Below are positions 730 to 58,268 of a stretch of DNA of 64,000 nt, piece by piece (the first letter of the stretch is position 1; each line of letters begins with the position of its first letter). The stretch covers positions 32,001 through 96,000 of IMG/VR virus record IMGVR_UViG_3300045988_095709; one strand, given 5' to 3'. Source of the DNA: a virus. The position numbers and the translations under genes are program-made. The notes beneath the pieces are model-generated. The model ran no database searches. It saw nothing but the letters and a program-made list of their open reading frames with translations, and was not told the origin of the DNA.

Positions 730-762
730 TAAATAGATAATAAATTAAAAATAAAATAATTT

Positions 763-13202: not shown

Positions 13203-13230
13203 TGAACATATTTAAAAAATCAATTAAAAT

Positions 13231-28090: not shown

Positions 28091-28270
28091 AAGATAATTC
28101 TTAAATATTCAAAAAATTTAATTTTTTATTGAAAAAAGTGACATTTTTTTGAAACCACTCATGTGGGGTTTATACGTTATATATAAGTAATTACATATAT
28201 TTTTCGTGCGCACACGAGATTTTTATTTATAACTAACCTATTTTTAATTTATTTTTATTTATTTATTCTT
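28091..28270 (+). promoter_or_regulatory. longest non-coding spacer; probable terminator hairpin plus promoter for the 28271 cassette
   Basis: 180 nt, extremely AT-rich. Hairpin TTTCGTG-CGCA-CACGAGA (28202-28219) plus T5. I could not place an exact TAnnTTTG / TTTG Bacteroidota promoter. Confidence 0.3.
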
Positions 28271-38508: not shown

Positions 38509-40418
38509 AAGATAGAAAAAGAATATTAAATCGTTATCAGGCTGGAAAATCAATAACATTCCAGCCTAGAAGTATATACGATCCTATATATAACGGAGCC
38601 GGACCTATGACTCCGTTCTTTGATTAGAATTCATTACTAAAAGAAACGAGTTAGGCTTTAACATCTAGTATACCTACTGTTACTAACATAAACAATAGTC
38701 CTATAACAAATACGAATAATAATACACAAACTAACAAATACGGAAATATTTTACAAAATATGAAAGGAGCGTTAGATACTACTATGAATTACGCTCCTCA
38801 ATTGTTACAGTTTGGAGGATAGATAGCAAACGCATTTGGCGGTGTAAAATCGTAGAATGAACTTTTAGGAGAAGCCGGATCTTCTACCGGTACTATTGAT
38901 GGTATTTCTTACGAAAAACAAAATTCTGTAGACTCCGAAGGTAACATGAAACAATTAAAAGCAGAAAATACAAGTAATACATTAGGTTTGGCTGCATCTG
39001 GAGCGTCTATTGGAAATTCTATAGGAGGTCCGATAGGAGCTGTCGCAGGAGGATTAATAGGAGGTATTGCTGGACTGTTTGGTGGAAGTTCTAGAGAAGA
39101 AAAATTAAAAAGAAGAATCAGAGAAGCTCAACAATATACAGGAAGATTGAATTAGTATAATAGATCTGGAGCATAGTCTGACGCATTATATAGAAATTAT
39201 TATTTAAATAACGATTCAAATTAGGACAAGATGATATACGCAAATAATGGAAAGGACAATAACGTATGGTCTCCGTACGGATATCATAAAGGTCCGACAA
39301 ATAGTATGGTTGGAAAAGGAGAAAGTATATTGAATCTACAAGACGAAACAGCAACTTATGTATCTAAAGGAAAAAGAGGAGTAGATAACCAACCATCTTC
39401 TGTTAGACAAGGCGACGATAATATAATATTAGGAAATGATATAGATTGGTCTAACGGAGTTAAATTTTCAGATTAGGCGGCACCTTATACAATGAAATTA
39501 CAATACATAAATAAGCTTAGAGATAAATCTGGAAGATATGATAAATTAAGTTCTCTCAGTCAAAAAACAAAAGATGTACAAAATAGAGAGATAGATAAAT
39601 ATAAACAACCAATTATGGACAACCTAAGAAACATATCGAATAGACAGAAAATACAACACGAAATACAGAATAGATATGAAACGTACGGATACGATTCCGG
39701 AAAGAATTCTTATCTGTTTCCAGCTATAGCAGGAATAGGTGCTGCATTAAATCAGTATTCTACTTATAACAATCAACCGATACGTTACCACAATACATAT
39801 CGTGAAAATCCATATCAAGCTGAAGCTTTAGCAGGATTAGCTAGAAATAGATATAATATATATCCTGAATTGGATGCTATAAGAAGAATAAGTAGAATGG
39901 GACAATATAGTATAAATAATTCTGGAGGATTAAGCGGAGCTTAGAGATATTTAGGAAGAATAGCAAACATTCTAGGAACGCAATAGAATATATCTAAGGT
40001 ATACAATACGGCACAAGAAGCAAATATGAACGCTAGACAAAATTATTATACTCAGTTGTTAAATGCTGGAGCTAAAGACCAGAGTAATAGAATGCAAGCT
40101 GCACAGCACGATTGGGCTGATTACGTTGCTTCTCACGGTGCTAAATATAAGAATAGAGACATTGCGATATCTAACATGCTTAACCAGATTAATTCTGCTT
40201 ATGCTAACAAATTCAAATACGATACTTGGAAAGATACTGCTGATTTGTATAGACAAAGATTAAATGACGAACAGTTAGAAAAATTAGCACAATTAGAAGG
40301 TGCAAGAGGAGTTTCAACGAGAAATACAATGCCGACGTTTACTAAAACATATAGTTCTGAAACTTCACCGTTCGGTCTTGATTTAAGTTTTAAAAATCTT
40401 ATTAAATTATATAAATAA
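38499..40418 (+). CDS. cargo/ejection-type protein, 639 aa, about 11 in-frame TAG
   Basis: ORFs 38946, 39231, 39492 and 40026 share a frame. Gly-rich hydrophobic segment LGLAASGASIGNSIGGPIGAVAGGLIGGIAGLFGG. Confidence 0.7.
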
Positions 40419-40420
40419 TT

Positions 40421-42148
40421 ATGATATACGGAAGAGATGAAGCCGTTGTGTATCCGGTTGCCGATCTATACGATACCGGAATGATGAATGCATACATATC
40501 GGCTGTAAAAGATGAATACGAAAGAGGACTGAAAGCACAAGACGAATTCGTATCGAAATACGGAGATTTTATGAGTCCTTTTTCTAAAGATGTAGATACT
40601 TGGAACCAACTCACAATGGACCGAGTAGAGAAAGCATATAACGATTTAGAGAAAATAGGAGTAGATCCGATAAGATCTCAAGAGGGCAGACAGTATTTAT
40701 ATAAAGTAATAAGAAGTGTACCTAGAGAAACTCTTTCTAAATTGAAATAGTCTGCTAAAGCTGGAGAAGAATATCTTCAAAATAGATCTAAGTTACAATC
40801 GCAAGGAAGATGGAATCCGGAGTTTGAAAACTTTTTATTAGGTGGTAAGTCTTTTTAGGATTGGAGTACTGTAGATAGTGGAATGTGGGATAGAACTTCT
40901 CCTATGGAATATAAAGATCTAAAAGAACTAACAAGTCCTTGGATGGCAGGTATAGACTCAGAATTCGATGAGGAATTGACAAAAAAGAAAAACGATGGAT
41001 TTGATTACTATACTACTTCTGAAAAGAAGATAAGAGGGGCAATAAACGATAACATCAACGAGTTCTTACTTAATGATTACGGAAAATTCTTCTACAACAA
41101 AGCTCTAAACGACGCTAGATCTACAGCGTTGCCTGGAGAAACAGAAGACAGTATAAGATAGAGGGCTAATAAGTTATTAGAAGATTCCATATATAGTAGA
41201 AATAGCGTGCTTACTAGAAAGAAGAGAGAAGTTAATCCTTACTATATGGAAAGAATTAAATATAGTCACGATATAGCTCTTGAGAATTTAAGACACAAGC
41301 ACGATATGGATAAACTTAAATGGAAAGCTAATAATTCTGGAACTCAAAAGAAACCAAATACTGTAAACTATAATCAGTCATTACTAGTAAGAGGAGCTTT
41401 GAGTTTGTCTGGTGGACAAAAAGCAGTAAATGCATATTATGGAAATCCGGATATGGGATTCAATTTTGCAACTACGCAAACAAAGAATTCGTTCTTAGGA
41501 TGGAAGAAGAAAAATATGAAATTAGGAAGAACGTTTAACTTATCAGGAACAGCTTATAATAATTATAAGAATAGATTCTTAAATTATACAGGATAGATGA
41601 CTGAAGATAAGAAAATGCTTCCTGCAAGATTAGGAAGAAAATATAATACAGTAAGCTCGTTCAACAAGGGTAAAGTATTCTATCTATATCCAAGTGACCT
41701 AGACGATATAGAAAGTACAGACGAGTTTGTAGTTAACAGTTTCGGAAACGTTAAACCTGTAAAATCAGGATACGTTAGAAAACTTAGAAACAGAATGGCT
41801 TACGATAAGTATCGTGATGACAAAGATGAATTAGTAGAAGATAAGAAATATGCTCCACACGTTTACGCACAACCTACAGGTAGAGTGTTTACTAAAGTTG
41901 GTACAAGCGGATAGATACAACAGTATAGTCAGATTAAGACTTACGATACCGACGGTAAATACATTGGAGAAGGTTATATGAAGATAAACGAAGGAGCTCC
42001 TTCTTATAACGATCCTAGCGGAATGATGTCTATATATCCGGAAGGAACAAAGTGGACAAATAAACAGTCTGTAATGGATTATAACGTAGACGTAAAAACA
42101 CTAGGAAGAAGACAAGTAACAAAAACACAATCCACAGGAGAAGATTGA
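40421..42148 (+). CDS. cargo/ejection-type protein, 575 aa, 5 in-frame TAG
   Basis: ORFs 40421, 40883, 41207 and 41597 share a frame. TGA at 42146 lies 1 nt before the next ATG. Confidence 0.7.
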
Positions 42149-42149
42149 T

Positions 42150-45100
42150 ATGGATATAAAAAGAATGCAAGGCGTCGCTTCATAGATTGCAGTATAGAAT
42201 GCAAATCAATGGGAGTGGGACGTACTTAGACGAGAGCGTCTTAGAGAATTAAGCAAAAGAAGATAGTAGAATAATAATACGGGATCTTCTAATACTAAAT
42301 AGAAGGAACAACAGCAATAGAACGAGTAGGCTCAATAGTCGCAACAAGGCGGCTTTAAGCCTACTTATTCTGCTACATAGAGTTCTCAAAATAAAAACAT
42401 AAATCTACATCCTTTCTTTCTGAATGACGACGATTCAAATACAGATCCTAATTAGTTTTTATAGCCTATAGAGGTTTAGAATATGGGCTGGAATACACAA
42501 ACTAAGAATTGGATAAACGAAGGATCTACTGGAAATCAACAAAGAAGAATAAATAACAGAAACGAAATATTAGCTAGATCTAAATATAATGTTGATTTAT
42601 AGTTGCAAAGAAAGAGAAACATAGCAGAAAATAGTAGGAATGGAGATATGGATTTCTATTATGCTCCATACGAAGATGCTGTAAAAGAATACGAAAAAGA
42701 AAAGCAGTGGTATATAAATACAGATCCTAGAGTATTAGAAGCTAAAAGAAAATACGAATAGATAAAGTCAGGAGAACAGCCTGAAGGATATTTTGACAGA
42801 GCTTTGTATGCGTTAGGTCAGATATCTACTCTCGATGTGCACGGTGTTGTTAACGGAATACAATCGATATTTGCTGGTAATAAAGCTAAAAAACAAGATT
42901 TACTAAACGATGCGTACAACGTATGGATGTAGAGAAAAAATGAGACACAGATAGCTACATCTAATGGTAAACTACAAATAGCTGATTAGATATCTAACGT
43001 GTTAGACTCTTCTTCTATAGATAGATATGTAGATGTATGTAACCAATTAATAGCAGATACAGATAGAAGAAATAGTCTTATAGACAAATATACTAGTAGA
43101 ACAGGATAGGGTATTACTAGAGAAGAGTCTTTGGAATTAGACATGTTGAAAAACAGAATAAATACACTTACTAAGGAAAAAGACGAATTTGAAAAAAACA
43201 TAGAATCTGCAGGAACATACGAATCTAATACTTTGTTGGGAGCTGCAATATCTAATGCGCAAGAATATTTAACCAGTGGAGGAGGTTCTTTTAATTTTGA
43301 TTTTGGAACTGGACTTGGTGGATCTCTATTAGGATTTAGAGAGAACATAACCAAATTGTAGAAAGGATTGGCTACAAGAAATCCTCAGATGGTTGAAGAA
43401 GCAAGACAGAACCTTAAAAGAATAAGAGGTGCTTACGAGAATCAATCTTAGAAAATGAAAAATCTCTGGAGAAAAGATATCGAAAGAGATACTAAAGATT
43501 TGAATAGTTATACCAGCAAATATACAGTTAGTGATTACTTTTTAAATAAAGAACAAGAAGCAAATCAAATATTAAATCCGTTCAATCCTAAGAAGTTGTG
43601 GATGGCTCCTGGTCTTTTAGGAGCATCTTTGTCTGATACTAATAAAATGGCTGTTAGCACAGCTACTGGACTTCTTACTATGTTGCCGATAGGAAGAGCT
43701 GCACGAGTAGGATTACAAGCTGCAAACTATGTGTCGTAGGTAGCTCAGGGAGCAGACGAAAACTTTGCTAACGTAGATTAGGCATACAAAGAGATAGTAA
43801 GATCGTCTTTGACTGAACAAGGATAGTATAGAACGTTTTTATAGGACGGTAGAGAAGCTATCGGAAATCCTGCTGCTACTGACGAGGATATAATAAACGC
43901 TTATTTCAGAGGAGATTATATTCCCAAAGACATAAAAGTCAGAAAGACTTTAATGAATGCTACTACAGGTTCAATGAAGTAGTTCATGTAGGGACAGGGA
44001 GTTAATCTATTAGACTCTTGGATAGACATGGCTATAGAAACTACACCTGTTGGTAAGTTTGCAAAACTGTCCAAAATAGAAGCTGTAAAGGGCGCAAAAC
44101 AAGGTCTTGCGAACATTGGAGAATCGTTAGCTGGAACTAAAGCTGGTCAATTTGTAACAAGTGCTCTAAAGAATTCAAAAGGAAAAGCTACACAGCTTGT
44201 AGACAAGATGGTAGAGTATGGAGTACGAAGAACAGCAAACGTTTCACAGATAGCCAAAGAGATGCCAAAAAGACTTCTACAGACTAGATATAATCTTGGA
44301 GTAGCAAATAGAGCAGTAAAAGATATAGCTAAGAGATCTGTGATAGGAGCCTACTCTGAAGCAGTAGAAGAAGGTTTGCAGCAAGAACAGCAATACGAAA
44401 GAATGCACAATCCTTCTGATTAGTACTATGATGTCTATAAATAGATTCCTAATACTATACTGGGAGGTCCTAGATTGTGGTATTCTTTATTGTTCAAAGA
44501 TCCAGACAAGGCTTCGTAGGAAGAATAGGAAATATGGCAAAGCATGGCTGGTGGTATATTAGGATCTTTTGTACAAGGAGGTTCAATGAATATTGTTCGT
44601 ACTGGAGTAGACGCTGTACAACAGATGAAGGATGGAGATATCATACTCAACAATATAATAGCTGATAAAATAAACGGTGACACTCAAATCGAAAAGGCAA
44701 AGTTGTATTCTAAAAAACTAAGAACATAGAGGGGAAAACAAAACCTGATAGATGTATTAGATTAGTATTAGCAATATAATGATAAACTAAATCAATCATA
44801 TAAAGAAGGTGGTGTAAAATAGGGAATACCAGAAGAGTGGATAGCTGAAGATAAAGCTATGGTGTAGGATATAGAAAACATTCGATATTCACAAAAAACA
44901 CAACAGTTAGCTAATAGATTGGGAATCAAAAATAAAAAGTTCAATCTTATAGACAACGACGATTACGATCTACTTGTAGCGATGCTATATAGAAATCAAC
45001 AGCAAATAAAAGAAGACAACGATTCTTTAAGTGAGGTTGTACGTAATCAAGAAAAACAAACTCCTATTACTTTTAACCAGTTCTTAGAAAATCAAGTAAG

Positions 45101-48100
45101 TGCTGGAAATTTAGATTAGAATTTCTTATAGAGTTATATCGGAGAGCAAAACGGAATAACAAGTTTGGTAAATACTGAAAATTTATCAGAAGAAGAGTTA
45201 AACAATGTTTAGAAAAAATATCAAGAATTACAAAATAGATATAATAATTACATTTCTAACATAGATACGATAGCTAAGCTTGCTGCTAATATGAAAACTC
45301 TTCAAGAGATAAAAGCTCTTGATAGACTTAACGGTAGACAGTCTTTTATACAAAAACGCGTAGAAAGAGAAGTCAATAAAATAAAACAAAATATAAATAA
45401 AATATACGAACAGCAAGGAAAGCAAGCTCATAAGATGGATACTCTTTCTGACGTAGAAGATTTTTATAAGAAAGCAGGTCTTCCTATAAGTGAGGATTAT
45501 ATAAATAACATAAAAACTATAGATGAATACAAATTACAACGAGATTTATCTATAGAAAAAGCTTATAAATTTATAACAGATCCCAAATACGCTAAAAAAC
45601 AACTGTCTCAATACAAAGAAACTAAAAAACAAGACGAGTATTTACAACAACAAGTTGAGTCTGACTACTATGATAAAGTTCTACACGATTATGCCGTACA
45701 AGACGCTGAAATAAACGACAGTAATAATATATATGTCGGAGAAGATGGAAAAACTTATGCGGTAAGACTGAATGTAGCAAAAGACGAAAATGGAGAAGAC
45801 GTTGAGTATTATTCTAAACATCTATATGATCCAAAAACTGACGTAATGGACAGAAGTGAACTTCCTTTCGATAAAGAAGAATGGTTCGACGGAAGAGATC
45901 AGATAGATGATATGACGCAAATAAAATCTCCTCAACTTAGAGAAAACGACGGATCTGAAGAACGTGTAGAAGAATTTTCTAAAAGACGAGATGTAAACGA
46001 ATAGAAACAAAAATATACTCAAGATCTATTAAACGATAAGAGTAGAAATGGTTATACAAGTAGAGCGAATCGTATAGAATCTTTTGTAGATGAAAATTAT
46101 TCTCCGTACAAAAGAGGAAAACAGTATTTCTTAAAGAACGGAGAAGAAGAATTAGAGATAACAAAGACGGAATATAATTACGCTAAATGGTATAAGAAAA
46201 ACTATTATACAGAACAACAAGAGGAAACACAAGACGATGTTCAAACCGAATAGGAAAATATAGACGGACAGCGTGATAACGTTGAACCACAGGTTTAGAA
46301 AGAAGAGAAACCTTCTGGACCAGAAGAATCTCAGAACACTGAACAAGAACAACCGATAACAAATAAAGAAGTAGAACAACCTGCGAGCGAACCTGAACAG
46401 AATCAATAGGAACAACAAGATTAGGAAGAAGATCAGAAGGTTCCAGATATAAAAATGACAGACGCTCAGAAAAATGTTATATAGGATCTTTCTCAGTTTA
46501 AGGTAGAAGGTAATAAAAAAATAAGATACGATTTGCGTTCTCCTATGGATTATTTTATAGAAGACGAAGATGGAAATATACAAGCGTATCCTAGAGTACA
46601 TAGTAAACTTAAGAAGATGTTCGAATTAGACCATACTGTATATGACAATATGAATTCTATATTCGAAGAACTTGAGAAATACAGACTTGATTTTATCGAT
46701 GCATTCAAACATAGAAATGACAATCAAGATGCCGCAGATAAATATAAAAAGTCTAAAATTTCATACATAAATAAAATAAAACAGTTACAATAGGAATACA
46801 ACGAGTCATTATTGAAAACTGTAAAAAATAATGAAAACTTGTACGATTTCTATAATGTTATTTTGGATGGATATTATTCTAACGATAATATACTAATGAG
46901 CAAATCCACTACCGATCATATATCTAAAATAGTAGGAAATAGGATTGGTGATAAGGTACAGTTACCTGCTACTTCTGTAATATCTGGTACAATAGTTGAC
47001 GAAATATGTAGAAGATGTTTTAGTGGAGAAGATGTTAAAAACGAACCGAGATTCAAAATGGACGATTCTACATTCGAACAACTTAAACAAGACATAATAG
47101 ATGTAAAGTCTGACTTCGAAAGCAAAGGTTGGATACTACTTCCGCAACAATATTGTTGGTATACTGAATTAGAAGGAATAGGAAGAATCGCAGGAGAAAC
47201 AGATATGTTGGCTGTTGATACTGACGGTTCTGTATATCTTATCGACTTTAAAACAAGTAAGAGATCTTATAAATACGGAACTCAAGTTAAAATTAGTGGG
47301 GATAAGTTAATCACACAACCTTCTAATTACGTAGAAGCTATAGACTGGAGTTTTGCAAAATCTAACTTTTCAGCAAGAGACGAATATAGAACACAGTTTA
47401 CTTTGTACTCTATGATGATACAACAGTGTACTATGTAGAGGCAGAAAGTAAAAACAATAAATATATTAGGATTTACCGTAAAAGCTTCTGTTTCAGATAA
47501 TGATCTTGTACAAATTAAATCAATAGAAAAACCTAATTTTATAGAGTTAGAAATACAGGATGATTTGAATACTTATTTGATTTTTGACGAAGATTCTTAG
47601 AACACAATAAGAAAAGAAAAAGAAAATTATTTAATTCTCATAAATCATATAGAAAATCAGTTACAATCTGATAAAAACTATTTAAATCAGCATTTCGATG
47701 AAATAAATAAGAGTTCAAACTTATATAGAGAGTTAGAACAACTTTCTACTAGAACTAAAGATATAAAATCTAGAATAAATAAAATAGATATAAACAAAGA
47801 TCCTGTATCTGAATTGAAAAACATTCACGATCAATATCTGTAGTTATCTACTGATTACAGTAATGCTGTACAAAAAGTATAGGATTACTTATCTTAGAAA
47901 GCTGAACAATATCAACAAGAACAAACACCTACAGTATCTACACAAAGTATACCTGTAGATATACAGTGGGACTTTAAAGAAATAGAAAAATACGATCGTG
48001 TATGGTATATAAACGTATCTAGGCAGAACGAAAAGCTTAGACAATTCAGAAGGATTACTACAAATAAAGATTTTATCGAAAACACTACTTTCTATTTGGA

Positions 48101-51100
48101 TACAAACATTAAAACGTTGATGAATCATGATTACATGATAACGTTTGAAAAAATAGTATATCACACTAAGGATCAAAACGGAAACGACGTATAGTTTGTA
48201 TTAGAAGGAGATGACGCTAGAAGTGTATCTATTTACTTTGCAAAATACGATTAGGACAGAAGACCGTACGGATACGGATAGAATCCTTTAGTAAAACAAA
48301 TAAAGGAAGCGTTACAACAAAACGAAGAAAACATAAAAAACAAAAACTTCCAATTAGTTTTGACAGGATTATCCAGAACAAATGGAGTCATAATAAGTCT
48401 TAAAGAAAACAAAAATGTAAAAGACACGTTCGATTTTACAGAAGAATAGATAGAACACCTGTTAGAAAATGGTACAGACCGAGTAGGTGTTACTGATAAA
48501 ATGGGTGTTGTAAAAACTATAGATAAAGCAAACAAAACTATATACGGAGACGGTATATATGCAAACTCAGGAGAACGTAGATTATCTCCTGGACAAGTAG
48601 TACTGATACACGATTTAAAATATAACGAGGATAAAGGTAACGGCAACCATAAAATACCAATCGTACTCTTACCGAAAAAGATAACAAATGCCGATGCTGA
48701 TCTTATTATAAACCTACTGAAAGACACAAGTAAGTAGGAATTGGCTGTTACAAATTCTGGTATTGTTGGACCTATAACAAAATATTAGTTGTTATCTACA
48801 CTCGTAAGATTCGGTCGTGGTGCACAAAATACAGGAAACGATTTCGTATTTAGATACAAAGAAATAGACGGTGTTGCACAAAGAGACATTGTAGAACTAC
48901 AAATCAGAGATGAAGAAGGTCAATTAATTACTACAGAATATGACTTGAATAATCCTGTATCTGTAGGTCAATTAAAACGACGTTTAGTAGAAGATGTATA
49001 CTTATATACAAATAATATATCTGTATTAAACAAGGCTACAAATAAGGCAAGAAACACAGATAAAAACAACATATTCTCACAGTTACAAGAATTCTTCGAA
49101 AACAATCCTAATATAAACTAGATAAGTTATGGAGAGAGTATGGTGTTCAATCGTGCAGACGTAGATCCTGACGGAGATGGTTCGTACAAAGGAATAACAG
49201 GATTACACTGGATGATAAGACACGGTTGGCTTACTACTAACTACGGTGGTGTTACAGATTCTATTTTCTCGGCTACAGGAGTTTAGGGAATAATACCGAA
49301 CAAACAGTAGTAGAATATAGAACAACATCCTGAACCAGAAAAAGTAGAAAATATAGACGTATAGCCAGAATAGAATGTCGGCGGAAACATAGGATACGAG
49401 AAAGAAGATGTTGAAGATGTTAGTATAGACGACGTTAACGAACTTCTTGGTGGAGACTTTGTGGCAGACAACGAAGGTCTTTTCCATAAGCAAAAAGGAA
49501 AAGCTAATGTAAAGATAGAAGAGAATGTAGCAAGAAGAACTATAAAACGAATTGTTGGAGACTCTATACCTTTACAGATGATAGACGATATTATATCGGT
49601 AATGTATGATGGAGATGTTGTCGGTATGTGTACTGCAGCTAGTATATATATTTCTAGACAAGCTGAAGCCGGTACTGATTACCACGAGTCTTTCCATGCT
49701 GTTGTCGAACTTCTTATGGATAAAAATAAGCGTGAGAGTTTGTATAAATTTACTAAGAATAAATTTAACATGCAAAACGCTACAGACGAAGAAGTTGCGG
49801 AAGCTTTAGCAGATTTATTCTTCTTATATAGTAAAGATGCTATACATTTTGAGGGAAGAATTGGAAGACTGTTCTCTTATGTAAAAGACTGGATAAATGC
49901 ATTTAAAGTTACAAAAAGTTTAAGGCTTGCTAATTTGTTTGTGAATGCAGATTTTGGAAAATTCGCAAATAAAACTATAAGCAAAGAACAGGTTAACGAT
50001 TTTAAAAATAGATTCCCAAAAGGTCTTAACTTGAAAATAAAAGGTAAGAACGGAAATGGTGTAGAATTTAAACACATATACACATCTACTCAATTAGACG
50101 ACGCAATTAATTATTTAGTATATCTGATAATAAAGAATGAAGGTATAAGTAGTATTGGTTCTAATCTAGACAAGTTAGATATTTCTAAGGAGCATCTTAC
50201 TAATACGAAACTTGACGAAAACAACAAACCGATTTCTAATTTCGGAAAAACTTATAGAATAGTAACAATGAGCGGTAAGTCTGAATAGGAATTGGATGAT
50301 TTAGTAAAAGAAGGAAAGATAACGCCTCTCGTTAAAAACAACGTGTTAATAATGAGAGAAATATTTAACAATTACGAAGACATCAAACCTATGATACTCG
50401 CAAAGTTGAAGAGCATGGGTGTTAACTCTAGACTAGACTAGGAATAGACAGAAAGAGAAAACAAAGAGGGAGACGATGTTAGTCAAATATCACGAGATGT
50501 AGATTCTCACGCAGACGAATTCTACACACATTCGATGTCTGACGATTTATCTTCTAATATGATATTCTTCTTAAGTACTAGACCTGCATTAAGATATGCT
50601 ACATAGGAGGATGTTGATAATGGAATTGTACAATCTTTGTATAAGAAAGATAGAAACGGAAACGAACAGAGAGTTTTAGTATCTTCTTCTAAAAATTCTA
50701 TGGGAATGACTACTTTCCTAGATTACAAACAAGTACACTAGTTATTATTATCAAATCTTCATGATGTGAAAGACGTTGAAGATTTATATAACAAACTTAA
50801 AAAACTAGGAAAGAACGATTATCTTTATGAAAATATAGCAAGAAGTTTATATCAATTTAGATTCCAATCTTATAAGAGATATACCAACAGAAAAGACGGA
50901 ATGGATAACGTACCTATGGTAATGTATAAAGGAAAATTATTAGATCCTAAACATTATATTTCTAATAAAAACAAATTATCATAGGAAGATCTGTATCCTA
51001 AGTTTGTAAGATGGTCTCATGATGTACTCGACAAGAACGGAAAAATAATATTCAAAGCCGGAGATGTGATACAGGGTGCAAGTATTGTGATGAATTACGA

Positions 51101-54100
51101 TATGGAAAATCTTACTACATAGTTGTTCCAATCTATAAAATCTCAAAAGTTAGATTATAACTTCTTGTATATAAGATCTGTAGTTGACGATAACGGAAAA
51201 GTTATAAACGGAAATTATTTATATTCTTACCATCCTACCAACTACGATAGATCGCAGCAACAATATCCAATACAATGGTTTGATAACTTACGTTCTTCTT
51301 TCAGCGGATTATTTACTAAGTCTGGAGATCTTAATAAGAATTTTACAAACTTTAAAGACTCTAAAAAATATCTTTCTGAATTGTATAACGCGTTAACGTT
51401 GGCGAAAGCTAATAACGGAAAGATTACAATAAACAAAGTAAATTACGACTTGACAAAAGGATCTGACTTAAGCGTTGTTATATCGTAGTTTGTAAAAAGT
51501 ATGAGAAACATAGGCGTAGATATAGATACCAATATGGTTCAATATTTACTACAACAGATGAACCCTGATGAACCTATGTTATACTTGGCATTCGTAGATT
51601 TAATAACTAAGGGAGGAAATAATAGTGTATACAGTATATTATAGCTTATAAAAGATAACGGTATTCTAGACTTAATGCAAAATAGGCTAGAGGCTGGAGA
51701 CATATCTTTCTTTACAAAAGATCAACCTAAAAACAATAGAATACACGATAGTATAAATACCGGATCGTATGTTTATACTAAGAGTGGCTTCTTAACGTTA
51801 TTGGCAATGTGGCAAGGAAAATTTAGAACATCTACTACAGAACTTATGACAATAGGTCCTGAAAACACAAAGATGTATACTTTTGCTCAAAACCATACAG
51901 CTTCGGATACTATATACGATCTTAATAATTCTTATGACGAAAACGGAAATCTTGTAAAAGGATGTACACTTGAAGAGTTAAGTTAGGTGGATTATGTATT
52001 AGCTAGAGATCAGCAAGGTAATAGAATAGGATCTATTATAGGAAAAACTCTTATGAATAAATATTGGAATCCTAATCATAATAAATTACAACTGAGAACT
52101 TCTGCTGGAACTAAATCTTCTACTTATTCTGACGAAGGATCTAAGTATTCTAAGACTACTTCTAGAGAAGACTATATGGCTAAAGTACAGATGTTGTTAT
52201 AGGGAGATATAATATTCCCGGCATTGTCTGATAAATCTACATATTTCTCTATAAGCGGAATAAAACTTCCAGGACTTAATTTCGATAACAGTTCTTCATC
52301 GATAGGAAGTCTTCCGGTATTTAACTCAAACACTGGAACAATGATGTTTATACACAATGTGATGGAGAATTCTGATGATAAGATAAGAAGTATTGAGGAT
52401 AATCCGAAAAGCGGATATAGATATAACGACGTTCTTGATTAGTTTATAGAATATTTTACTTGTGAAAATATAAATGTAAACAAAACTATAAACGACTTAG
52501 GATTGTAGGAATAGAACGCAACAAATACTCCGATATCAGAAAATCAGAAAATTACAAACTATCACAAAGGAAGTATAAATGGTGCAAGATATTTGAGTTT
52601 GATGGGAATATACGCATTAGAAGATATGGAAATAAAGATAAACGGAAAAACTAAATCTTATAAAAAGGGAGATTATATACCGTTTAACTTTAAAGCAAAT
52701 ACTCCTAGTGAAGGTATACTTGAAGGAAGAAATCTTGCTCAGTCTCTTTTCTTTGACCAACCTATAGAAAAACAAAGAGTGATAGTAGCTGAAATATTAA
52801 GAAGAAGACTTGATGATACGTTGAACGACTTGTTAGAAATGGGAATAATAAGCAAAAACGACAATGCTTCTAAAGCAAAAGGTATTGTTACTCATGATTA
52901 TTATTCTTATAAAAATAATTATTTTGACGTAGATAAGATAAACAGATTAGCTAGGTGTTATTCTAACATAGAAGGAATACAAACTTTCGGAAATTCTGCA
53001 TTAGAGTCTTTAGGTGTAGTAGCGATGGCGTACGATATAATGTGTAAGAGTATGATGTCTATGGAAGAAACAAGACGTTTCTTTACGGGAATGCCTCAGT
53101 TCTTTAAAACAAAATATTCTTCAGAAGGAAATTTAGTAGATTATGGAACAGACGAAACTAAACGTTACGGAGGTGAAGGTTCTACTGGTTCTAATAACCG
53201 TGAAGACATGGCTAATATACCAGAAGAGTATACTTGTGCAGAGCTAAAAGATTGGGAAATTTCGTCTGCTATAAGCGAATCTTTGGAACAGGCTTTCAAA
53301 GAAGGAGAATATAGAGAGTCGTTATCTGTATACTATAGCGAAAATCCATCGTTAGGTAAACCTTCCGACGCTTATAATATGTCTATAGAAGACGTAGAAA
53401 AAGAATTAGAAAAAACAGGAATGTTAGAAATGATTGACATGAAGATAAAAAAAGAATCTAATTCTTATAAAAGCGAAATAAACGTTACAGACGGTACTGC
53501 TTACATAACAGATACTATGGCAGAAAATCTGTTAAGAATGCGAGGAGCGTTTAATAACGAAATAGCAGAAGCGTTTGAAAGACTGAGAGGCGATAAAGGA
53601 TACCTAAATAGTGCACAAGATTATAAACTTATACACGAAGCACTTATAAGTACATAGAAATATTCTGCTTTCGGATACAGAATGCAAAACGGAATACCGG
53701 TACACTTCTACGATAAGTTCGCATTGTTCCCAATGTTCAAAGGAATATCTTTCGGATTTAGTAGAGATCTTTATGATAAGATGCGTAAAGAGGGTGTAGA
53801 TATGGTAATGTTTAATTCTGCTGTAAAATCTGGATCTTAGGGTGCGTAGAAGTTCTCTCCTGATATGACAAAAGAAGATTTATAGAAGTTTACATTTAAA
53901 AACAATATCTATAAACAAAAGTATAAGTACATAAGAAGGCAGTTGAATACAGATCCTAGAACTGATGAAGTAATGGCTGCAGGAACACAGGCTATGAAGG
54001 TTTCTCTCAGTGTACTTAGAGATTGGCAAACATATTCTATACAAAATCCTGACGGAACGGAACAAACTTTGAATAAAAACGAAGTATTGAGTGCTATAAT

Positions 54101-57100
54101 GGACAGGATGAACAGAATGGCTGAAATAGGAAGTCAGTAGATAAAAGAAGAATTCTTTACCAACGGAAAGCTAGATTACGCAAAATTAAAAGATTTCATA
54201 GTAAGAGAACTTTCTAGTAGAAATGCCGATAAGAATATACTTGAAGCTGTCAATTTGGATTATCTTACTGACGAGAACGGAAATATAATTCCGGAAAGCG
54301 TACATTTTGTTACTGACATAAACGTAGTTTCTAATATGGCATGGATAGAAAGTATATTGATATCACATATAAATAAAAAAGTAATAGATATTAATTTTAA
54401 AGGAAATGCTTTCTATCAGAGATCCGTGTTTGGTCTTGATAGCCCTACTGTATTAAACGACGATTAGGTAAAATACGAAATGAATGGTGGTAAACCTCTG
54501 CAGATGATAAATGAAGAGGGAAGTATGGACGCAGTAATAAGTATAGACTACTTTATGGATATTATACCTAAGAAATATAGATATAATTTCAAAAAAGCAA
54601 AACAATGGTTGATTGACAACGATATTATATCTGGTATAAAAACAGGAACAAAAGAGTGGAATAATGCTAAAGCTAGTGTGTTATCATACCGTATTCCTAC
54701 TCAGGCGGCATCTTCTATTCACGCGTTAAGATTTGTAGACGTATTACCAATCGTTAGAGATACTATAATACTACCTAGAGAGTTTACTAAGATTACTGGT
54801 TCTGACTTCGATATTGATAAATTGTATTTATCGTCTTTCTATTATAATGTAAACAAAGAAACCGGAAAGTCATCTTTGATAATGGACGACGAATATGAAA
54901 ATACAGCAAATCAACTTCTTTCTATATATCTTTCTTTGATTAAAGATGCTGGAAAACAAGTTACAGACGGAAAAATATCTAAGTCTAGATACATGCATAT
55001 ATTGAACAGATCTATTGATAACGATACAGAGTTGATAACCAATGTTCTTTCTGATATAGAATCTGGAAAAACTAAAAAGACCGTAGAGCCATATCAATTT
55101 GAAAATCTAACCAATCAAGTAAAGATAAAACAATCATTTGCTACAGGTAAACTCGGAATAGGACCGTTTGCGTTGAATAACAACAATCAGGTACTTACTA
55201 TGTTGTACAACGTTTCTTTCAAAGATTTTGGAGACAACGATAAAAGTTTATTAACTTATATCGGAATGAACAGGTTAGATAGGATTACAGATATAAACGG
55301 AAACCATATATTATCGTGGATATCTGCGATGATAAACGCACACGTGGACGTTGCGAAGGATCCGTATATATTAAGATTAAATGTAAATAAATTTACATAT
55401 AATCTAGTAAATCTACTTATACGTTGTGGTCTAGGAGATAGAGCTTTATATTTCATCAACAACCCTATAATAAAAGATTTAGCTAGAATAAGTGAAGAAA
55501 CGCAAGGAAGAATAGTTGATGAACCGGAAATAAGCGTAAGAAAAAGGTTTGAAAACGCTTAGGAACAGTATATACGTGACTGTAAGTTTAGAGATGAGTC
55601 TTTTTCTAAGTTGTATATGAAAGCTAAGGACGAAGAAAAAAGAGCTGCTGAAAAGAAAGATTTTGATAAAATCGCAGAAATAATGGGAATGGATAGAGAC
55701 GGTCTTCCAATAAATAGTATTAAAATATTTAAAGACGGTCAGTATTATACTGTTGATGGTACATATATAATGAGAGACATTTTAAAAAATAAAGACGTAC
55801 TCATAGATGAAAACAAACCGTTAAGTATGGATAATCTTAGAGACGACGATCAGTTTTATTACGTGTTGGAAGGTGATAGAAGAGTTACTCCAAAAGAAGT
55901 TTAGATGTATATATTCTTAGCTATGCAAAATTTAAACATAAATGCAGCGGCTCTTTCTGCAGTAGTACAGGCTACTAAAGTAGACACTAAAAAGCACGGT
56001 AAAACTGTAAGAGAACAATCAGAATATAATGCTAAATACGAATAGTTATTAAGAGGTGGTATATCTAACATGTTTGAAAATTTGGATAACATGTTGACAA
56101 AATCTTATATAAACGTTAAAACTAATCTCGGAATAGGTATTCCTAAGAAAATTCTTTAGGAGTTTTCTATAACAGCTACAGACAATTTTAGATACGTAGT
56201 GGATTCTATATGCTCTATGTACTTAAACAACTAGACTTCTAAAACTAAAACATCGATACAGAATGCTGTTCTCGCATACGTTAAACAGATTGCTATGAAT
56301 AAAGCTATGGAAGATAACGGAATAACTAGCGAAAAGTGGATGGAGATGATACAAGGAAGAAAAACGTTAGCACAGAGAATAACAAACCTTCAGAACATAT
56401 TGATTTCGGATGTAGATGGTAAATATAAATCTTTAGCTACTAACGGAACAATAATAAATCCATTACTTGCTAATTTGCGAAGAATTCCATATCAACCACA
56501 ATACGGACAGGTTCACTACGATCTTATAGGGTTAGAAAACAAAGGAGCTGACGATAGTGAATTGAGTAATAACTATATTGATGCATGGTAGCAACTTTTA
56601 GATTATGATGATCCTCAATATCCAAAAGAGTCTGAAGCTATAAGGAAGCTAGCTAGCGATCTTGCTGTTTATGCGTTTGTGACATCTTCTGATACTAAAG
56701 GAACAAATAAATTTTTCAAATATGTTCCTGTTTCTTGGAGAAATGATTTTGGGTATTCAGAGTATATAAGATAGGCTTTTTAGTACTTTAAAGACGGAAA
56801 CGTAAAAGTACAAGAAGATGCTGAAGATGGATTTTTAACTATAGATCCGTACGAATTAATAATGAATAACTATATGGATCCTAATATTCTACCTACACAT
56901 AAGATGAATAAGTTTATGGGATCTTCTTATCAGTATAGTGAAACGGATTTCTAGGGAAAGATTATAACAAGTAATATATACACAATGATTGCAGGTCTTG
57001 TTAACGATAGACCTACAATGTATAAATCTGAATACATTACACAATATCCTCCTTTTGTCAGAATACAAAGACCAAATACCAATAGATTTTCTGCAGATTA

Positions 57101-58268
57101 GTATTTGTTGTATAGACTTGCTGCTTACGGTACTAAAACGTTATCTGACGGTAAACAGGTATCTTATCCTGTATATATACTTTTAAATCCTAAAGGTCAG
57201 AGAGTTAAAATAGGTGCTCAAAATTATGATTTCTATTCTGTAGGAAGAGACGATAATTATCAGCACGATTTCTTAAAAGGTGAAACTCCAAACTTCTTAG
57301 AAAAAGTAAAATGGATATAGAAAAACATAGAAAAAATACAGGAGTTGAGAGCAGCTAAAACAGCAACAGTAGGAGACGTGAGATAGTTGTTCGACATACC
57401 GGCAGGAGATAGTTATTCTATACAAACGTTCGGAAATATATAGAGAACAGTATATCAAAATGAAAAATACGGAAATATAGGAGAAGCTGAAATACAACAC
57501 GACTAGTTACAATTAGAGCTCGGACCATATGGTGAATGGGAAATAAAAGGCGATAATACTTCTAAATTTGATACAAACAAAGCATTAGATACATACACAT
57601 TGCATTCTGGTGGAGCAAAAGGTTCAGACTCTTACTGGGGAACAGCAGGAGAGAAATACGGCTTATTGTACGACGATAAACACCAAAGACACTATTATCA
57701 CCAAGAAAAAACTCCTGTAGGAAATGTAGAAATATCTAATTAGGATTACGAAGAAGGAAGATACAAGGCAGCATAGGCTGCTTCAGCAAGATGGGGATAT
57801 AACTTGAAAACAATGAAAGATAATAGATTGATTAGAAATTGGGCTCAGGTTAAATATTCAGATGCAATATTTGCAATAGGAACTCTTGTTAAACCCGGAC
57901 AACCGATAGATCCAAACAACAATAAAGAAACAAGAATTGCTAAGAAAGTAATAGTTTCTGGAGGTACCGGATATGCTGTAGAGATGGCTATACAAGCTGG
58001 TAAACCTGTATACGTATTCGATTAGAGGAGAAACAGATGGTATAAGAACATAGACGGAAAATGGTCTAAATCAGATATTCCTGTACTTACTAAAAATTTC
58101 GCAGGTATCGGAACTAGAGAGTTATAGGATAACGGAAAATAGGCTATAGAAGACGTATATAAAAAGACTATAGAATAGATGTAGAAGAACTCTACTAATT
58201 AGGATATCGATATCAATATAGAAGATTTCAGTAATCTAAACGAATAGAGACATGAACAATGTGATTAA
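42150..58268 (+). CDS. giant multidomain virion protein containing crAss-type RNA polymerase, 5372 aa, about 104 in-frame TAG
   Basis: 24 track ORFs from 43131 to 57804 are all in frame 0. I walked every gap and found no TAA/TGA until TAA 58266. Contains DFDID, HExxH, PD-(D/E)XK-like and SLOG-like segments. Confidence 0.75.
47193..47252 (+). other. PD-(D/E)XK nuclease-like motif inside the giant ORF
   Basis: GETDMLAVDTDGSVYLIDFKTSK has the pattern G-x-x-D-(x)n-hhh-D-x-K-T, as in RecB/Cas4-type nucleases. Confidence 0.45.
49683..49697 (+). other. HExxH zincin-type motif inside the giant ORF
   Basis: TDYHESFHAVVELL (cac gag tct ttc cat at 49683-49697). Confidence 0.4.
54804..54818 (+). other. 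DxDxD catalytic motif of the crAss-type DPBB RNA polymerase
   Basis: ITGSDFDIDKLYL preceded by SYRIPTQAASSIHALRF. This matches, from memory, the DFDID metal-binding loop described for phi14:2 gp66. Confidence 0.65.
57597..58170 (+). other. SLOG / DUF2493-like Rossmannoid domain at the C-terminus of the giant ORF
   Basis: LHSGGAKGSDSYWG ... LIRNWAQVKYSDAIFAIG ... SGGTGYAVEMAIQAGKPVYVFD follows the GGAxGxD ... RN ... GT ... A..G.PV pattern. Confidence 0.5.

What the first reader, a model, noticed from the sequence alone, without database searches (positions are those of the whole stretch)
42150..58268. A 16.1-kb single ORF (5,372 codons) fusing nuclease-like, zincin-like, RNA polymerase and SLOG-like modules
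In sequence this AT-rich, 5,372 codons without TAA or TGA cannot arise by chance. All 24 track fragments share one frame.

In the crAss-like phages I remember (crAssphage, crAss001, phi14:2), the virion RNAP and its neighbouring giant proteins are separate genes of about 1-2.5 thousand codons. Here they appear fused into one reading frame that needs about 104 TAG suppression events to complete.

That implies either a polyprotein that is processed (an HExxH module is on board) or graded C-terminal truncation set by suppression efficiency.
Basis: partly seen in the sequence, partly recalled or inferred. Interest (0 to 1): 0.85.

Follow-up and report, generated by a model that had tools for sequence, protein, structure and literature searches.

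The report
Giant crAss-like phage RNA polymerase gene
This 16-kb reading frame is real, but it is the ordinary giant virion RNA-polymerase gene of one known family of gut crAss-like phages (Suoliviridae), written in a known alternative genetic code where TAG means glutamine.

Summary
Window 42150-58268 (+) is one frame of 5,372 sense codons with 104 TAG, no TGA and one terminal TAA.

It is not an artefact:
- An independent IMG/VR contig (96.9% identical) keeps the same ORF.
- dN/dS between the two strains is 0.056 in this frame, 0.02-0.20 in every segment, against 1.6-2.0 in the other two frames.
- TAG exchanges with CAG/CAA in 32 of 36 differing codons, so TAG means Gln.

It is not new either:
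- The window is syntenic with Suoliviridae (delta crAss-like) genomes. Their annotated counterpart is always one CDS of 4,328-5,801 aa.
- Two of these relatives (cr118_1, cr1_1) have no in-frame TAG, so the fusion does not depend on recoding.
- An exhaustive protein scan finds 15 cluster representatives of 5,178-6,939 aa with the same order: PD-(D/E)XK, HExxH, DFDxD.

Relative to crAss001, the giant equals gp47 (nuclease + zincin) plus gp50 (RNAP) plus a SLOG domain.

Giant fused RNAP ORFs, a "huge polyprotein likely cleaved", the zincin domain and TAG-to-Gln recoding of late genes are all published (2018-2023).

Graded truncation by leaky suppression is not supported. Cleavage remains untested.

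The parts
42150..58268 (+). Giant ORF: 5,372 codons plus TAA, 104 in-frame TAG read as Gln, predicted protein 617 kDa
   Evidence: The same ORF is present in an independent contig. dN/dS is 0.056 in this frame.
42150..46793 (+). N-terminal region (aa 1-1548), function unknown. Q/N-rich start and long helical, charged stretches. A block at aa 483-1088 is conserved among Suoliviridae giants.
   Evidence: blastp to cr109 227-792 and cr52 464-788. No Pfam, PHROG or tblastn match. dN/dS is 0.02-0.07.
46794..47435 (+). PD-(D/E)XK (RecB/Cas4-type) nuclease module, aa 1549-1762. Motifs: D1685, D1699-x-K1701, Q1749xxxY1753.
   Evidence: Pfam PDDEXK_1 is sub-threshold for the window. There are 91 homologs, and two short ones pass the Pfam cutoff. 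The catalytic residues are invariant. The profile hits crAss001 gp47 1650-1891 at E=2.7e-41. The fold search is weak: AdnA, Cas4 and SduA at E>=0.26.
49530..50144 (+). Zincin-like (gluzincin-type) module, aa 2461-2665. H2512-E-S-F-H2516, with the putative third ligand in E2551-A-L-A-D.
   Evidence: There is one HExxH per giant, always 1,444-1,707 aa before DFDxD. Invariant residues are Y, H, E, H, then E and A. The profile hits 54 database proteins and crAss001 gp47 2120-2294 at E=2.6e-20. The best PDB profile hit is Zmp1/PPEP-1 at E=0.38, not significant.
50157..50249 (+). Approximate seam (aa ~2,670-2,700) between the gp47-like half and the gp50/g066-like RNAP half
   Evidence: Stand-alone gp47-type proteins end about 150-190 aa after HExxH. 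The N-terminal region of g066 aligns with the giants just after the zincin block. The position is inferred, within about 50-100 aa.
53001..55742 (+). Conserved core of the two-barrel virion RNA polymerase (aa 3618-4531), with catalytic DFDID at aa 4219-4223 (nt 54804-54818)
   Evidence: PDB 6vr4 at E=4.6e-26. blastp to g066 851-1730. tblastn to 44-91 Crassvirales records. Collinear with cr130_1 gp79 over aa 2279-4910.
57582..58169 (+). C-terminal SLOG / DprA-like domain (aa ~5145-5340)
   Evidence: PHROG 768 at E=1.9e-8. blastp to cr130_1 gp79 5032-5237 at E~1e-19. No Pfam or PDB sequence match.
58254..58265 (+). C-terminal tail ...E-Q-C-D with the family's conserved near-terminal cysteine
   Evidence: 51 of 60 family proteins have Cys in the last 6 residues, against 0.9% of internal 6-mers.
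33688..38508 (+). Upstream neighbour, 1,606 aa, 23 TAG. Counterpart of cr130_1 gp76 'virion structural protein'; sits where crAss001 has gp44 (stabilization/muzzle protein).
   Evidence: (blastp to gp76) and synteny with crAss001. No direct match to crAss001 gp44 was obtained.
38487..40418 (+). gp45-like cargo protein gene (643 aa, 11 TAG)
   Evidence: blastp to cr130_1 gp77. phmmer to crAss001 gp45 at E=1.1e-9.
40415..42148 (+). gp46-position cargo protein gene (577 aa, 5 TAG). Its TGA stop lies 1 nt before the giant's ATG.
   Evidence: blastp to cr130_1 gp78. Junction sequence. The equivalence to gp46 rests on synteny only.
58281..63581 (+). Downstream gp49/g065-like 'RNAP-associated protein' gene (about 1,766 aa, 36 TAG). 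It starts 13 nt after the giant's stop.
   Evidence: blastp to cr130_1 gp80, cr109 gp52 and the cr118 downstream protein at E~1e-35. cr1's counterpart matches phi14:2 g065 at E=1.9e-31.

Best explanation
The ORF is the Suoliviridae-type (delta-group crAss-like) giant virion RNA-polymerase cargo gene.

Translation. It is translated late in infection as one chain of about 617 kDa, under a reassigned code in which TAG is glutamine, as in every other late gene of this window.

Domain order. An N-terminal region of unknown role is followed by a PD-(D/E)XK nuclease and a small HExxH metallopeptidase-like domain; together these are the equivalent of crAss001 gp47. Next comes the two-barrel DFDxD RNA polymerase, the equivalent of crAss001 gp50 and phi14:2 gp66. 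A SLOG/DprA-like domain and a short Cys-containing tail end the protein.

Function, by analogy with phi14:2 and crAss001, where the separate orthologs were shown to be in virions and gp66 to transcribe early genes. The protein is packed in the capsid with the gp45/gp46-like and gp49-like neighbours. It is pushed through the tail partly unfolded ahead of the DNA, and it transcribes the phage's early genes.

Basis of each step:
- Shown here: the ORF, its coding status along its whole length, TAG=Gln, the module order, and the homologies.
- Inferred: packaging, ejection and transcription.
- Open: whether the chain is later cut at the gp47/gp50 seam by the adjacent zincin. I put that at about 40%.
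For: - ORF and codon counts.
- The same ORF in an independent assembly.
- dN/dS is 0.056 overall and 0.02-0.20 in all 12 segments, against 1.6-2.0 off-frame.
- TAG exchanges with CAG 29 times and CAA 3 times out of 36. Q is the residue most enriched opposite TAG in standard-code relatives. No ORF in the window ends in TAG.
- Synteny with cr130_1 gp64-gp80.
- A single annotated giant CDS in cr130_1, cr109_1, cr52_1, cr118_1 and cr1_1, two of them free of TAG.
- RNAP match to 6vr4 at E=4.6e-26 with DFDID.
- Nuclease and zincin profiles hit crAss001 gp47.
- 15 database giants of 5,178-6,939 aa have the same motif order.
- gp47, gp49 and gp50 were detected in crAss001 virions by mass spectrometry and are modelled as ejected cargo (PMC10172136).
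- Giant RNAP genes up to ~6,000 aa are described, and TAG=Gln was confirmed by metaproteomics in a Suoliviridae phage (PMC10136315).
Against: - No Suoliviridae phage has been cultured or imaged. Virion packaging, ejection and activity of the fused form are therefore extrapolated from other families.
- No tRNA with a CUA anticodon was found in the window or in 36 kb of the sister contig beyond it. How TAG is decoded is not explained here.
- The zincin and SLOG assignments rest on motif conservation and one PHROG hit. No structure could be obtained for the zincin region (pLDDT 37).
- The N-terminal 1,548 aa has no assignable function.
Confidence: 0.88

Rival explanations
1. Self-processing polyprotein. 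The chain is cut at the seam (about aa 2,670-2,700), and possibly elsewhere, by its own HExxH domain. Cleavage would occur during assembly or after ejection. It would release a gp47-like protein and an RNAP and so activate transcription. This refines the best explanation and does not replace it.
For: - The HExxH domain lies directly N-terminal to the seam in every giant, and at the extreme C-terminal end of stand-alone gp47-type proteins.
- The halves work as separate polypeptides in Steigviridae, where they are even encoded on opposite strands.
- phi14:2 gp66 crystallised in a self-inhibited state. Its authors suggested proteolytic activation and cleavage of fused polyproteins.
Against: - The same zincin is kept where there is no fusion to cut (crAss001 gp47, LMMB), so it must have another substrate.
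- No conserved cleavage motif was seen at the seam. The near-terminal Cys that marks true C-termini in this family is also missing there in most giants (none in the window, cr118, cr52, cr1, P0010 or P0034; present in cr109, cr130 and P0021).
- The catalytic status of the domain is unproven: no significant match to any curated peptidase.
- N4 vRNAP (~3,500 aa) is described as one giant virion-packaged protein (abstract of PMC13434306); that it functions without cleavage is my own recollection.
Confidence: 0.4
2. Graded truncation. TAG is only partly suppressed. The gene would then yield a ladder of C-terminally truncated products whose ratios are set by suppressor level.
For: - 104 TAGs in one ORF.
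- No suppressor tRNA was found.
- TAG is avoided in the most highly expressed gene (the MCP-position gene has 0 TAG among 17 Gln codons). This hints that TAG decoding carries some cost.
Against: - 12 TAGs fall in the first 110 codons. Any appreciable termination would abolish everything downstream: at 90% read-through per TAG, 2e-4 of chains reach DFDID and 2e-5 reach the end.
- All segments, including the last 233 codons, are under purifying selection.
- TAG and CAG interchange freely between strains.
- Standard-code relatives have the same architecture with no TAG.
- TAG is spread through all late genes, including essential single-domain ones.
Confidence: 0.03
3. Not one gene. The region would be many short standard-code genes or a decayed pseudogene, or the downstream modules would be made from internal starts.
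For: - Under the standard code the region breaks into fragments of at most 381 aa.
- Public standard-code gene calls for relatives are such fragments.
Against: - dN/dS is 0.056 across TAG positions and junctions.
- Uninterrupted orthologs of 4,551-4,946 aa exist in standard-code relatives.
- Homology to solved gp66 runs across several TAGs.
- No TAA or TGA occurs in 16 kb.
Confidence: 0.03

Closest known systems
Suoliviridae (delta crAss-like) giant RNAP-containing CDS, e.g. cr130_1 gp79 (YP_010113266.1, 5,801 aa, 74 TAG), cr109_1 gp53 (4,328 aa), cr118_1 (4,946 aa, 0 TAG)
   Same: - Same position in a fully syntenic late-gene block.
- Same single-ORF architecture with one HExxH about 1,450-1,700 aa before one DFDxD.
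- A SLOG/DprA-like C-terminal domain in cr130_1 and cr109_1.
- TAG=Gln recoding in several of them.
- A near-terminal Cys.
   Different: - Only 30-42% identity in the RNAP core, and the N-terminal 2,200 aa is barely alignable.
- BLAST did not detect the PD-(D/E)XK module at aa 1549-1762 in the five annotated relatives compared. It is found in many database giants.
- This ORF has the most TAGs of those compared (104).
crAss001 gp47 + gp50 (+ gp49) and phi14:2 g067 | g066 | g065 (Steigviridae virion RNAP and associated cargo proteins)
   Same: - Same modules in the same order: nuclease and zincin in gp47, two-barrel DFDxD RNAP in gp50/g066, and a separate downstream gp49/g065-type protein.
- The orthologs are experimentally virion-borne, and gp66 is a proven RNAP.
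   Different: - There the nuclease-zincin protein and the RNAP are separate genes. In crAss001 they are on opposite strands. Here they are one chain.
- Neither crAss001 gp50 nor phi14:2 g066 is annotated with a SLOG/DprA-like domain; this was not scanned for here.
- These genes contain no in-frame stop codons, so they read under the standard code.
p-crAssphage-type (Intestiviridae, e.g. LMMB) 'RNAP associated protein/zincin protease fusion protein' (1,957 aa) + 'RNAP catalytic subunit/RNAP subunit fusion protein' (4,070 aa)
   Same: - Same module set.
- The concatenated HExxH-to-DFDxD spacing is 1,647 aa, within the Suoliviridae range.
- It is also a giant fusion.
   Different: The fusion boundary is shifted. 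There the RNAP is annotated as fused to a second RNAP subunit, which by gene order (no separate downstream gene before the strand switch) would be the g065/gp49-type protein, and is split from the zincin protein. That identity was not confirmed by sequence: no LMMB protein matched any Suoliviridae protein in phmmer. Here the RNAP is fused to the zincin protein and split from the g065-type protein.
Coliphage N4 virion RNAP (gp50, ~3,500 aa; Schitoviridae)
   Same: Works like it: a giant, multi-domain, virion-packaged polymerase that is ejected into the cell to transcribe early genes (abstract of PMC13434306; review PMC10136315).
   Different: It is unrelated in fold: a T7-like single-subunit RNAP, against the two-barrel DFDxD RNAP here. 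This point rests on established knowledge and was not tested here.
Genetic code 15 (TAG to Gln) recoding of late genes in gut phages (Ivanova 2014; Yutin 2021; Borges 2022; Peters 2022, as cited)
   Same: - In-frame TAG is confined to the late/structural strand.
- TAG and CAG interchange between strains.
- TAA and TGA are the only stops.
- The absence of a detectable CUA suppressor is itself a documented pattern in Suoliviridae-like phages.
   Different: Nothing material. The window simply lacks the early region.

Membership tests
Crassvirales two-barrel virion RNA polymerase (phi14:2 gp66-like) | Significant sequence similarity to the solved gp66 structure | tested here: met
   phmmer against PDB: 6vr4_A at E=4.6e-26. 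Two stretches match, query aa 3771-4247 and 4305-4474.
Crassvirales two-barrel virion RNA polymerase (phi14:2 gp66-like) | Catalytic DFDxD motif aligned with that of gp66 | tested here: met
   DFDID at aa 4219-4223 aligns with gp66 DFDID at 1361.
Crassvirales two-barrel virion RNA polymerase (phi14:2 gp66-like) | Encoded in the cargo block after the tail stabilization gene and the gp45/gp46-type genes | tested here: met
   Synteny with cr130_1 gp76-gp80 and with crAss001 gp44-gp47. The gp45 homolog scores E=1.1e-9.
Crassvirales two-barrel virion RNA polymerase (phi14:2 gp66-like) | Presence in virions and RNA polymerase activity | not testable with these tools
   Shown only for phi14:2 and crAss001 orthologs.
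Suoliviridae-type giant RNAP fusion ORF | A single ORF above 4,300 aa holding one HExxH about 1,450-1,700 aa upstream of one DFDxD, at the syntenic locus | tested here: met
   Window: HExxH at 2512 and DFDID at 4219, spacing 1,707. Five annotated relatives have spacings of 1,444-1,587.
Genetic code 15 (TAG=Gln) late-gene recoding | In-frame TAG in conserved genes, with TAA/TGA as the only terminators | tested here: met
   All long + ORFs from 1513 to 63581 contain TAG and all end in TAA or TGA.
Genetic code 15 (TAG=Gln) late-gene recoding | TAG corresponds to glutamine | tested here: met
   TAG exchanges with CAG 29 times, CAA 3, GAG 3 and TAT 1 between two strains. Q is enriched 3.1x opposite TAG in standard-code relatives. 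There is no peptide-level proof for this phage.
Genetic code 15 (TAG=Gln) late-gene recoding | Phage-encoded suppressor tRNA(CUA). Frequent but not universal: 35-40% of recoded genomes. | tested here: not met
   Only tRNA-Met, Gly, Leu(UAA) and a degenerate Lys-like tRNA were found in the window plus sister contig 28596-64876. A gap of unknown size remains between the two.
PD-(D/E)XK nuclease superfamily (Pfam PF12705) | Score above the Pfam gathering threshold | tested here: inconclusive
   The window segment scores 15.6 bits against a cutoff of 22. Homologs P0008 (32.2 bits) and P0033 (23.2 bits) pass.
PD-(D/E)XK nuclease superfamily (Pfam PF12705) | Catalytic D ... (D/E)xK residues conserved | tested here: met
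   D1685, D1699 and K1701 are invariant in 16 sequences. QxxxY is present at 1749-1753.
PD-(D/E)XK nuclease superfamily (Pfam PF12705) | Restriction-endonuclease-like fold | tested here: inconclusive
   The AF2 model has mean pLDDT 62, with the core at 75-94. The best Foldseek hits are AdnA, Cas4 and SduA nuclease domains, but at E>=0.26.
Zincin / gluzincin metallopeptidases | HExxH plus a downstream Glu ligand, conserved across the family | tested here: met
   Invariant Y-H-E-x-x-H, then an invariant E and A about 39 aa later, in 6 giants. The profile finds 54 further proteins.
Zincin / gluzincin metallopeptidases | Significant similarity to a curated peptidase family or solved zincin structure | tested here: not met
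   The best PDB profile hit is Zmp1/PPEP-1 at E=0.38. No Pfam or NCBIfam hit. The AF2 model is unusable (pLDDT 37).
SLOG / DprA-like domain | Significant match to a family profile | tested here: met
   PHROG 768 'DprA-like DNA recombination-mediator protein' at E=1.9e-8. Homologous to the C-terminus of cr130_1 gp79, which is annotated the same way. No Pfam or PDB hit.
Proteolytically processed viral polyprotein | Demonstrated cleavage into mature products | not testable with these tools
   Hypothesised in the literature. There is no peptide or gel evidence for any Suoliviridae phage.

The most novel reading that the evidence does not exclude
The 617-kDa chain is packaged and ejected as one unit. 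A single conserved near-C-terminal cysteine tail would serve as the only cargo or encapsidation tag. That would explain why gp47-type and RNAP-type proteins can be fused or split freely between families: each stand-alone protein carries its own tail Cys, and in most giants none is kept at the seam. The chain would then be cut in cis at the seam by its adjacent zincin after ejection, to switch on the self-inhibited polymerase. A second loose end is decoding of 104 TAGs with no detectable suppressor tRNA, in a lineage that encodes a permuted tmRNA. This could point to an undescribed way of reading TAG.
Probability: 0.12. Interest if true: 0.6.

Novelty: already known. Interest (0 to 1): 0.2.

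Why it matters
As a discovery it matters little. Giant fused RNAP ORFs, their zincin, nuclease and DprA-like add-ons, the cleaved-polyprotein hypothesis and TAG-to-Gln recoding of late genes are all in the Crassvirales literature and in RefSeq annotation.

The case does have practical value:
- It shows how badly standard-code gene calling fragments such genes. Public protein sets hold only 500-900-aa pieces of close relatives.
- It gives a clean module map across three families: Suoliviridae giant = gp47 + gp50 + SLOG. The fusion boundaries shift between families, with the seam just after the zincin.

Two questions remain open and are worth testing in a cultured Suoliviridae phage. Is the chain cleaved? 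What does the conserved C-terminal cysteine do?

Tried and rejected
Searches that failed or could not run:
Queries were therefore limited to TAG-free stretches or pasted Q-substituted sequences.
- Drobysheva 2021 as PMC12127119 is not held. The bioRxiv version was read instead.

Searches that found nothing useful:
- The word-indexed protein search found only standard-code fragments for the RNAP core. It found nothing for the nuclease or zincin stretches.
- PDB and NCBIfam sequence searches of those stretches found nothing.
- tblastn of the N-terminal 1,450 aa against 50,697 phage records found no match.
- BLAST and phmmer could not link the giant's N-terminal part to phi14:2 g067, or the giant to crAss001 gp50 or LMMB proteins. 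The correspondences rest on profiles A1 and A2, motif spacing and synteny.
- The A1 profile against phi14:2 and LMMB proteins was not significant.

Structure attempts:
- Single-sequence AF2 of the zincin stretch failed (pLDDT 37).
- The Foldseek search of the nuclease model gave no significant hit.

Ideas rejected:
- A strong transmembrane segment in the giant: none found on a Kyte-Doolittle scan.
- The weak tRNA at L013 9857-9925 as the missing suppressor: it is a degenerate Lys(UUU)-like tRNA.
- A TAG exactly at the seam (aa 2713) as meaningful: with one TAG per 52 codons this is expected by chance.

Full report
**1. Observation**

The frame beginning at 42150 contains 5,372 sense codons and a terminal TAA, with 104 TAG and no TGA. 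The other five frames of the same 16,119 bases hold 71-477 TAA+TGA. TAA+TGA occur at 5.9-8.9% of codons in the neighbouring frames, so a stop-free run of this length has a chance probability of 1e-141 to 1e-217. The first ATG lies one base after the TGA of the upstream gene, and the next gene starts 13 bases after the giant's TAA.

The ORF is not an oddity within the window. Read with TAG as sense, the whole + strand from 1513 to 63581 becomes a tight series of long ORFs, each with in-frame TAGs and each ending in TAA or TGA.

**2. Is it real and coding throughout?**

An independent IMG/VR contig (IMGVR_UViG_3300045988_119203, 64,876 bp) is 96.9% identical over window 32150-64000. It carries the same ORF: 5,385 codons stop-to-stop, 102 TAG, with indels compensated to multiples of three.

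Between the two strains dN/dS is 0.056 in the claimed frame, against 1.6 and 2.0 in the other two frames. Each of twelve segments lies between 0.02 and 0.20. That includes the first 500 codons (19 TAGs) and the last 233 codons, which sit behind about 95 TAGs.

Where one strain has TAG and the other does not, the partner codon is CAG 29 times, CAA 3, GAG 3 and TAT 1. Glutamine is also the residue most enriched opposite the window's TAGs in standard-code relatives (3.1x). So TAG is read as glutamine, and the whole frame is translated.

**3. What it is**

*RNAP.* The segment aa 3600-4500 matches the solved virion RNA polymerase gp66 of Cellulophaga phage phi14:2 (PDB 6vr4) at E=4.6e-26, with the catalytic DFDID aligned. 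tblastn finds 44-91 Crassvirales genomes and nothing else.

*Synteny.* Gene order in the window matches cr130_1 (Suoliviridae, Oafivirinae) gene for gene from gp64 to gp80.

*The giant CDS in relatives.* In every Suoliviridae reference genome examined, the counterpart is one annotated CDS:

| Genome | Length (aa) | In-frame TAG |
|---|---|---|
| cr130_1 | 5,801 | 74 |
| cr109_1 | 4,328 | 70 |
| cr52_1 | 4,464 | 37 |
| cr118_1 | 4,946 | 0 |
| cr1_1 | 4,551 | 0 |

The two TAG-free cases show that the giant ORF exists independently of recoding.

*Database giants.* An exhaustive HMMER scan with the TAG-free nuclease stretch found 91 cluster representatives. Fifteen are proteins of 5,178-6,939 aa carrying PD-(D/E)XK, one HExxH and one DFDxD in the same order and spacing as here.

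**4. Modules**

- *Nuclease (aa 1549-1762).* Pfam PDDEXK_1 is sub-threshold on the window sequence. Short homologs pass the cutoff. D1685, D1699 and K1701 are invariant, and a QxxxY follows. An MSA-based AF2 model has a confident core. Its best, non-significant fold matches are the RecB-type nuclease domains of AdnA, Cas4 and SduA.
- *Zincin-like (aa 2461-2665).* Each giant has exactly one HExxH, always 1,444-1,707 residues before DFDxD. It sits in an invariant YHExxH block, followed about 39 residues later by an invariant E-x-x-A-(E/D). The family profile's best PDB hits are the gluzincin Zmp1/PPEP-1, aligned over both motifs, but at E=0.38. The domain is therefore a conserved zincin-like element whose peptidase activity is unproven.
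- *RNAP.* As in section 3.
- *SLOG/DprA-like (aa ~5145-5340).* PHROG 768 at E=1.9e-8, and homology to the C-terminus of cr130_1 gp79.
- *N-terminal 1,548 residues.* No assignable function. They share one conserved block with the other Suoliviridae giants.

**5. Fused or split?**

- *crAss001.* The order is gp44 | gp45 | gp46 | gp47 (2,341 aa). On the opposite strand come gp50 (2,412 aa, DFDVD) and gp49 (1,349 aa). The nuclease profile hits gp47 at 1650-1891 (E=2.7e-41). The zincin profile hits gp47 at 2120-2294 (E=2.6e-20), and gp47 then ends.
- *phi14:2.* The order is g067 | g066 | g065. g066 maps onto the giants from just after the zincin block.
- *Downstream ORF.* The window's downstream ORF belongs to the g065/gp49 family.
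- *Result.* The Suoliviridae giant equals gp47 + gp50 + SLOG, with the seam near aa 2,670-2,700.
- *p-crAssphage-type genomes.* The boundaries are shifted. A 1,957-aa 'RNAP associated protein/zincin protease fusion protein' is followed by a 4,070-aa 'RNAP catalytic subunit/RNAP subunit fusion protein'. If the two are concatenated, the HExxH-to-DFDxD spacing is 1,647 aa, within the Suoliviridae range.

**6. What is already published**

- Guerin et al. [quoted passage not shown]
- Yutin et al. 2021 describe the block of large multidomain transcription proteins, PDDEXK domains within them, and TAG-to-Gln recoding in the delta group.
- The 2023 review speaks of an RNAP gene 'up to ~6000 aa'. It also reports metaproteomic confirmation of TAG=Gln in a Suoliviridae phage.
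- Bayfield et al. 2023 detected gp47, gp49 and gp50 in crAss001 virions. They model these proteins as capsid cargo ejected partly unfolded.

**7. Mechanism**

*Shown here:* one coding frame, TAG=Gln, the module order, and the homologies.

*Inferred from the experimentally studied orthologs:* late expression, packaging as capsid cargo, ejection ahead of the DNA, and transcription of early genes.

*Graded truncation is not tenable.* Twelve TAGs fall in the first 110 codons. At 90% read-through per TAG only 2e-4 of chains would reach the catalytic motif and 2e-5 the end. A 10% yield needs about 98% per codon. Decoding must therefore be near-complete.

*TAG may still carry a cost.* The gene at the major-capsid position (13228-14751) has 0 TAG, 1 CAA and 16 CAG, whereas 30% of the giant's Gln codons are TAG (P=0.002).

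*How TAG is decoded is unexplained.* No CUA-anticodon tRNA occurs in the window or in the 36 kb of the sister contig beyond it. This is a documented pattern in such phages.

*Cleavage at the seam is open.*
- For: the zincin sits next to the seam, and the halves function separately elsewhere.
- Against: the same zincin is retained where there is nothing to cut, and no conserved site is visible at the seam.

**8. Verdict**

The feature is already known: it is a divergent member of a well-populated class, and a 97%-identical copy is already public. Interest is low.

The two points I would still follow up were both noticed in passing. One is a conserved cysteine within the last six residues of 51 of 60 family proteins, against 0.9% of internal 6-mers. 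The other is a permuted tmRNA in this lineage.

Noticed in passing
window 58254-58265 (giant's last four codons E-Q-C-D); also the C-termini of relatives in L003-L007, L010, L011, L020 and of proteins P0009-P0098: A cysteine lies within the last six residues (most often at position -4, e.g. 'HCKGE') in 51 of 60 family proteins of at least 1,900 aa. Cys makes up only 0.18% of their residues, and only 0.9% of random internal 6-mers contain one. The tail Cys is present on fused giants, on stand-alone gp47/g067-type proteins and on g066. It is absent from gp44/45/46/49-type neighbours, and most giants have no Cys at the internal seam (cr109, cr130 and P0021 do). The nine proteins lacking it look like truncated gene calls. 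It may be a cargo or encapsidation tag. None of the papers read mentions it.
   Followed up: partly
L013 2116-2294 (sister contig IMGVR_UViG_3300045988_119203, outside the window); L014 1887-2128; L017 1215-1390; L018 1659-1834; L019 186-411: A permuted (two-piece) tmRNA, Rfam RF04321, lies in the early/replication module of this Suoliviridae lineage. It scores 63-67.5 bits in four relatives and 47.6 in the sister contig, against a gathering score of 47. The homologous site in cr124_1 RefSeq is annotated 'transfer-messenger RNA, SsrA'. The Crassvirales papers read do not discuss it. It could be relevant to a TAG-recoded phage with no suppressor tRNA.
   Followed up: partly
window 1-64000 and sister contig 28596-64876 (L012, L013, L021): No tRNA with a CUA anticodon was found. 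The tRNAs present are tRNA-Met and tRNA-Gly (window 1261-1487), tRNA-Leu(UAA), and a degenerate Lys(UUU)-like tRNA with an irregular 6- or 8-nt anticodon loop (L013 9857-9925; 30.8 bits, missed by ARAGORN). A stretch of unknown size between the sister contig's end and the window start could not be examined.
   Followed up: yes
window 13228-14751 (+): The gene at the major-capsid-protein position (just upstream of the cr130_1 gp64 homolog) has 0 TAG, 1 CAA and 16 CAG, and a higher GC content. Most other late genes use TAG for 20-70% of their Gln codons. ORFs 11994-13202 and 28187-29059 show the same CAG preference with few TAGs. This suggests that TAG is selected against in the most highly expressed genes.
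   Followed up: partly
window 2-637 and 760-1245 (+), before the tRNAs at 1261-1487: The two ORFs upstream of the tRNA pair contain no TAG. The recoded block starts abruptly at 1513. This looks like the boundary between standard-compatible genes and TAG-recoded late genes.
   Followed up: no
window 46497-47699 and 52947-55649 (giant aa 1450-1850 and 3600-4500): Synonymous divergence from the sister strain is mosaic. dS is 0.27-0.32 in these two stretches and 0.05-0.18 elsewhere in the same ORF, while dN/dS stays low. This suggests recombination between strains within the giant gene.
   Followed up: no
giant ORFs of the window, L003, L004, L006 (recoded) versus L005, L007 (standard code): If TAG is counted as Gln, the recoded giants are 4.5-6.3% glutamine. 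The standard-code giants of cr118_1 and cr1_1 are 2.9-3.3%. Recoding therefore goes with a rise in Gln content, and TAG is not simply a replacement for CAA/CAG.
   Followed up: no
P0034 (6,939 aa), P0021 (6,362 aa), P0010 (5,840 aa): After the RNAP, other database giants carry different C-terminal add-ons. Read by eye from the sequences, P0034 has a SLOG-like motif, then an SF1-helicase-like P-loop region and a Cys-rich end. P0021 has two further HExxH motifs. These add-ons may explain the odd RefSeq names ('DNA helicase', 'exonuclease V', 'DprA-like') given to these giant genes.
   Followed up: no
cr130_gp80 aa 436, cr1 downstream protein aa 517, phi14:2 g065 aa 245: Some g065/gp49-type downstream proteins carry their own HExxH plus an E-F-x-x-E helix. 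This is the zincin that Drobysheva et al. assign to gp65. The window's downstream ORF (58281-63581), cr109 and cr118 lack it. The block can therefore hold zero, one or two zincin-like modules outside the giant.
   Followed up: partly
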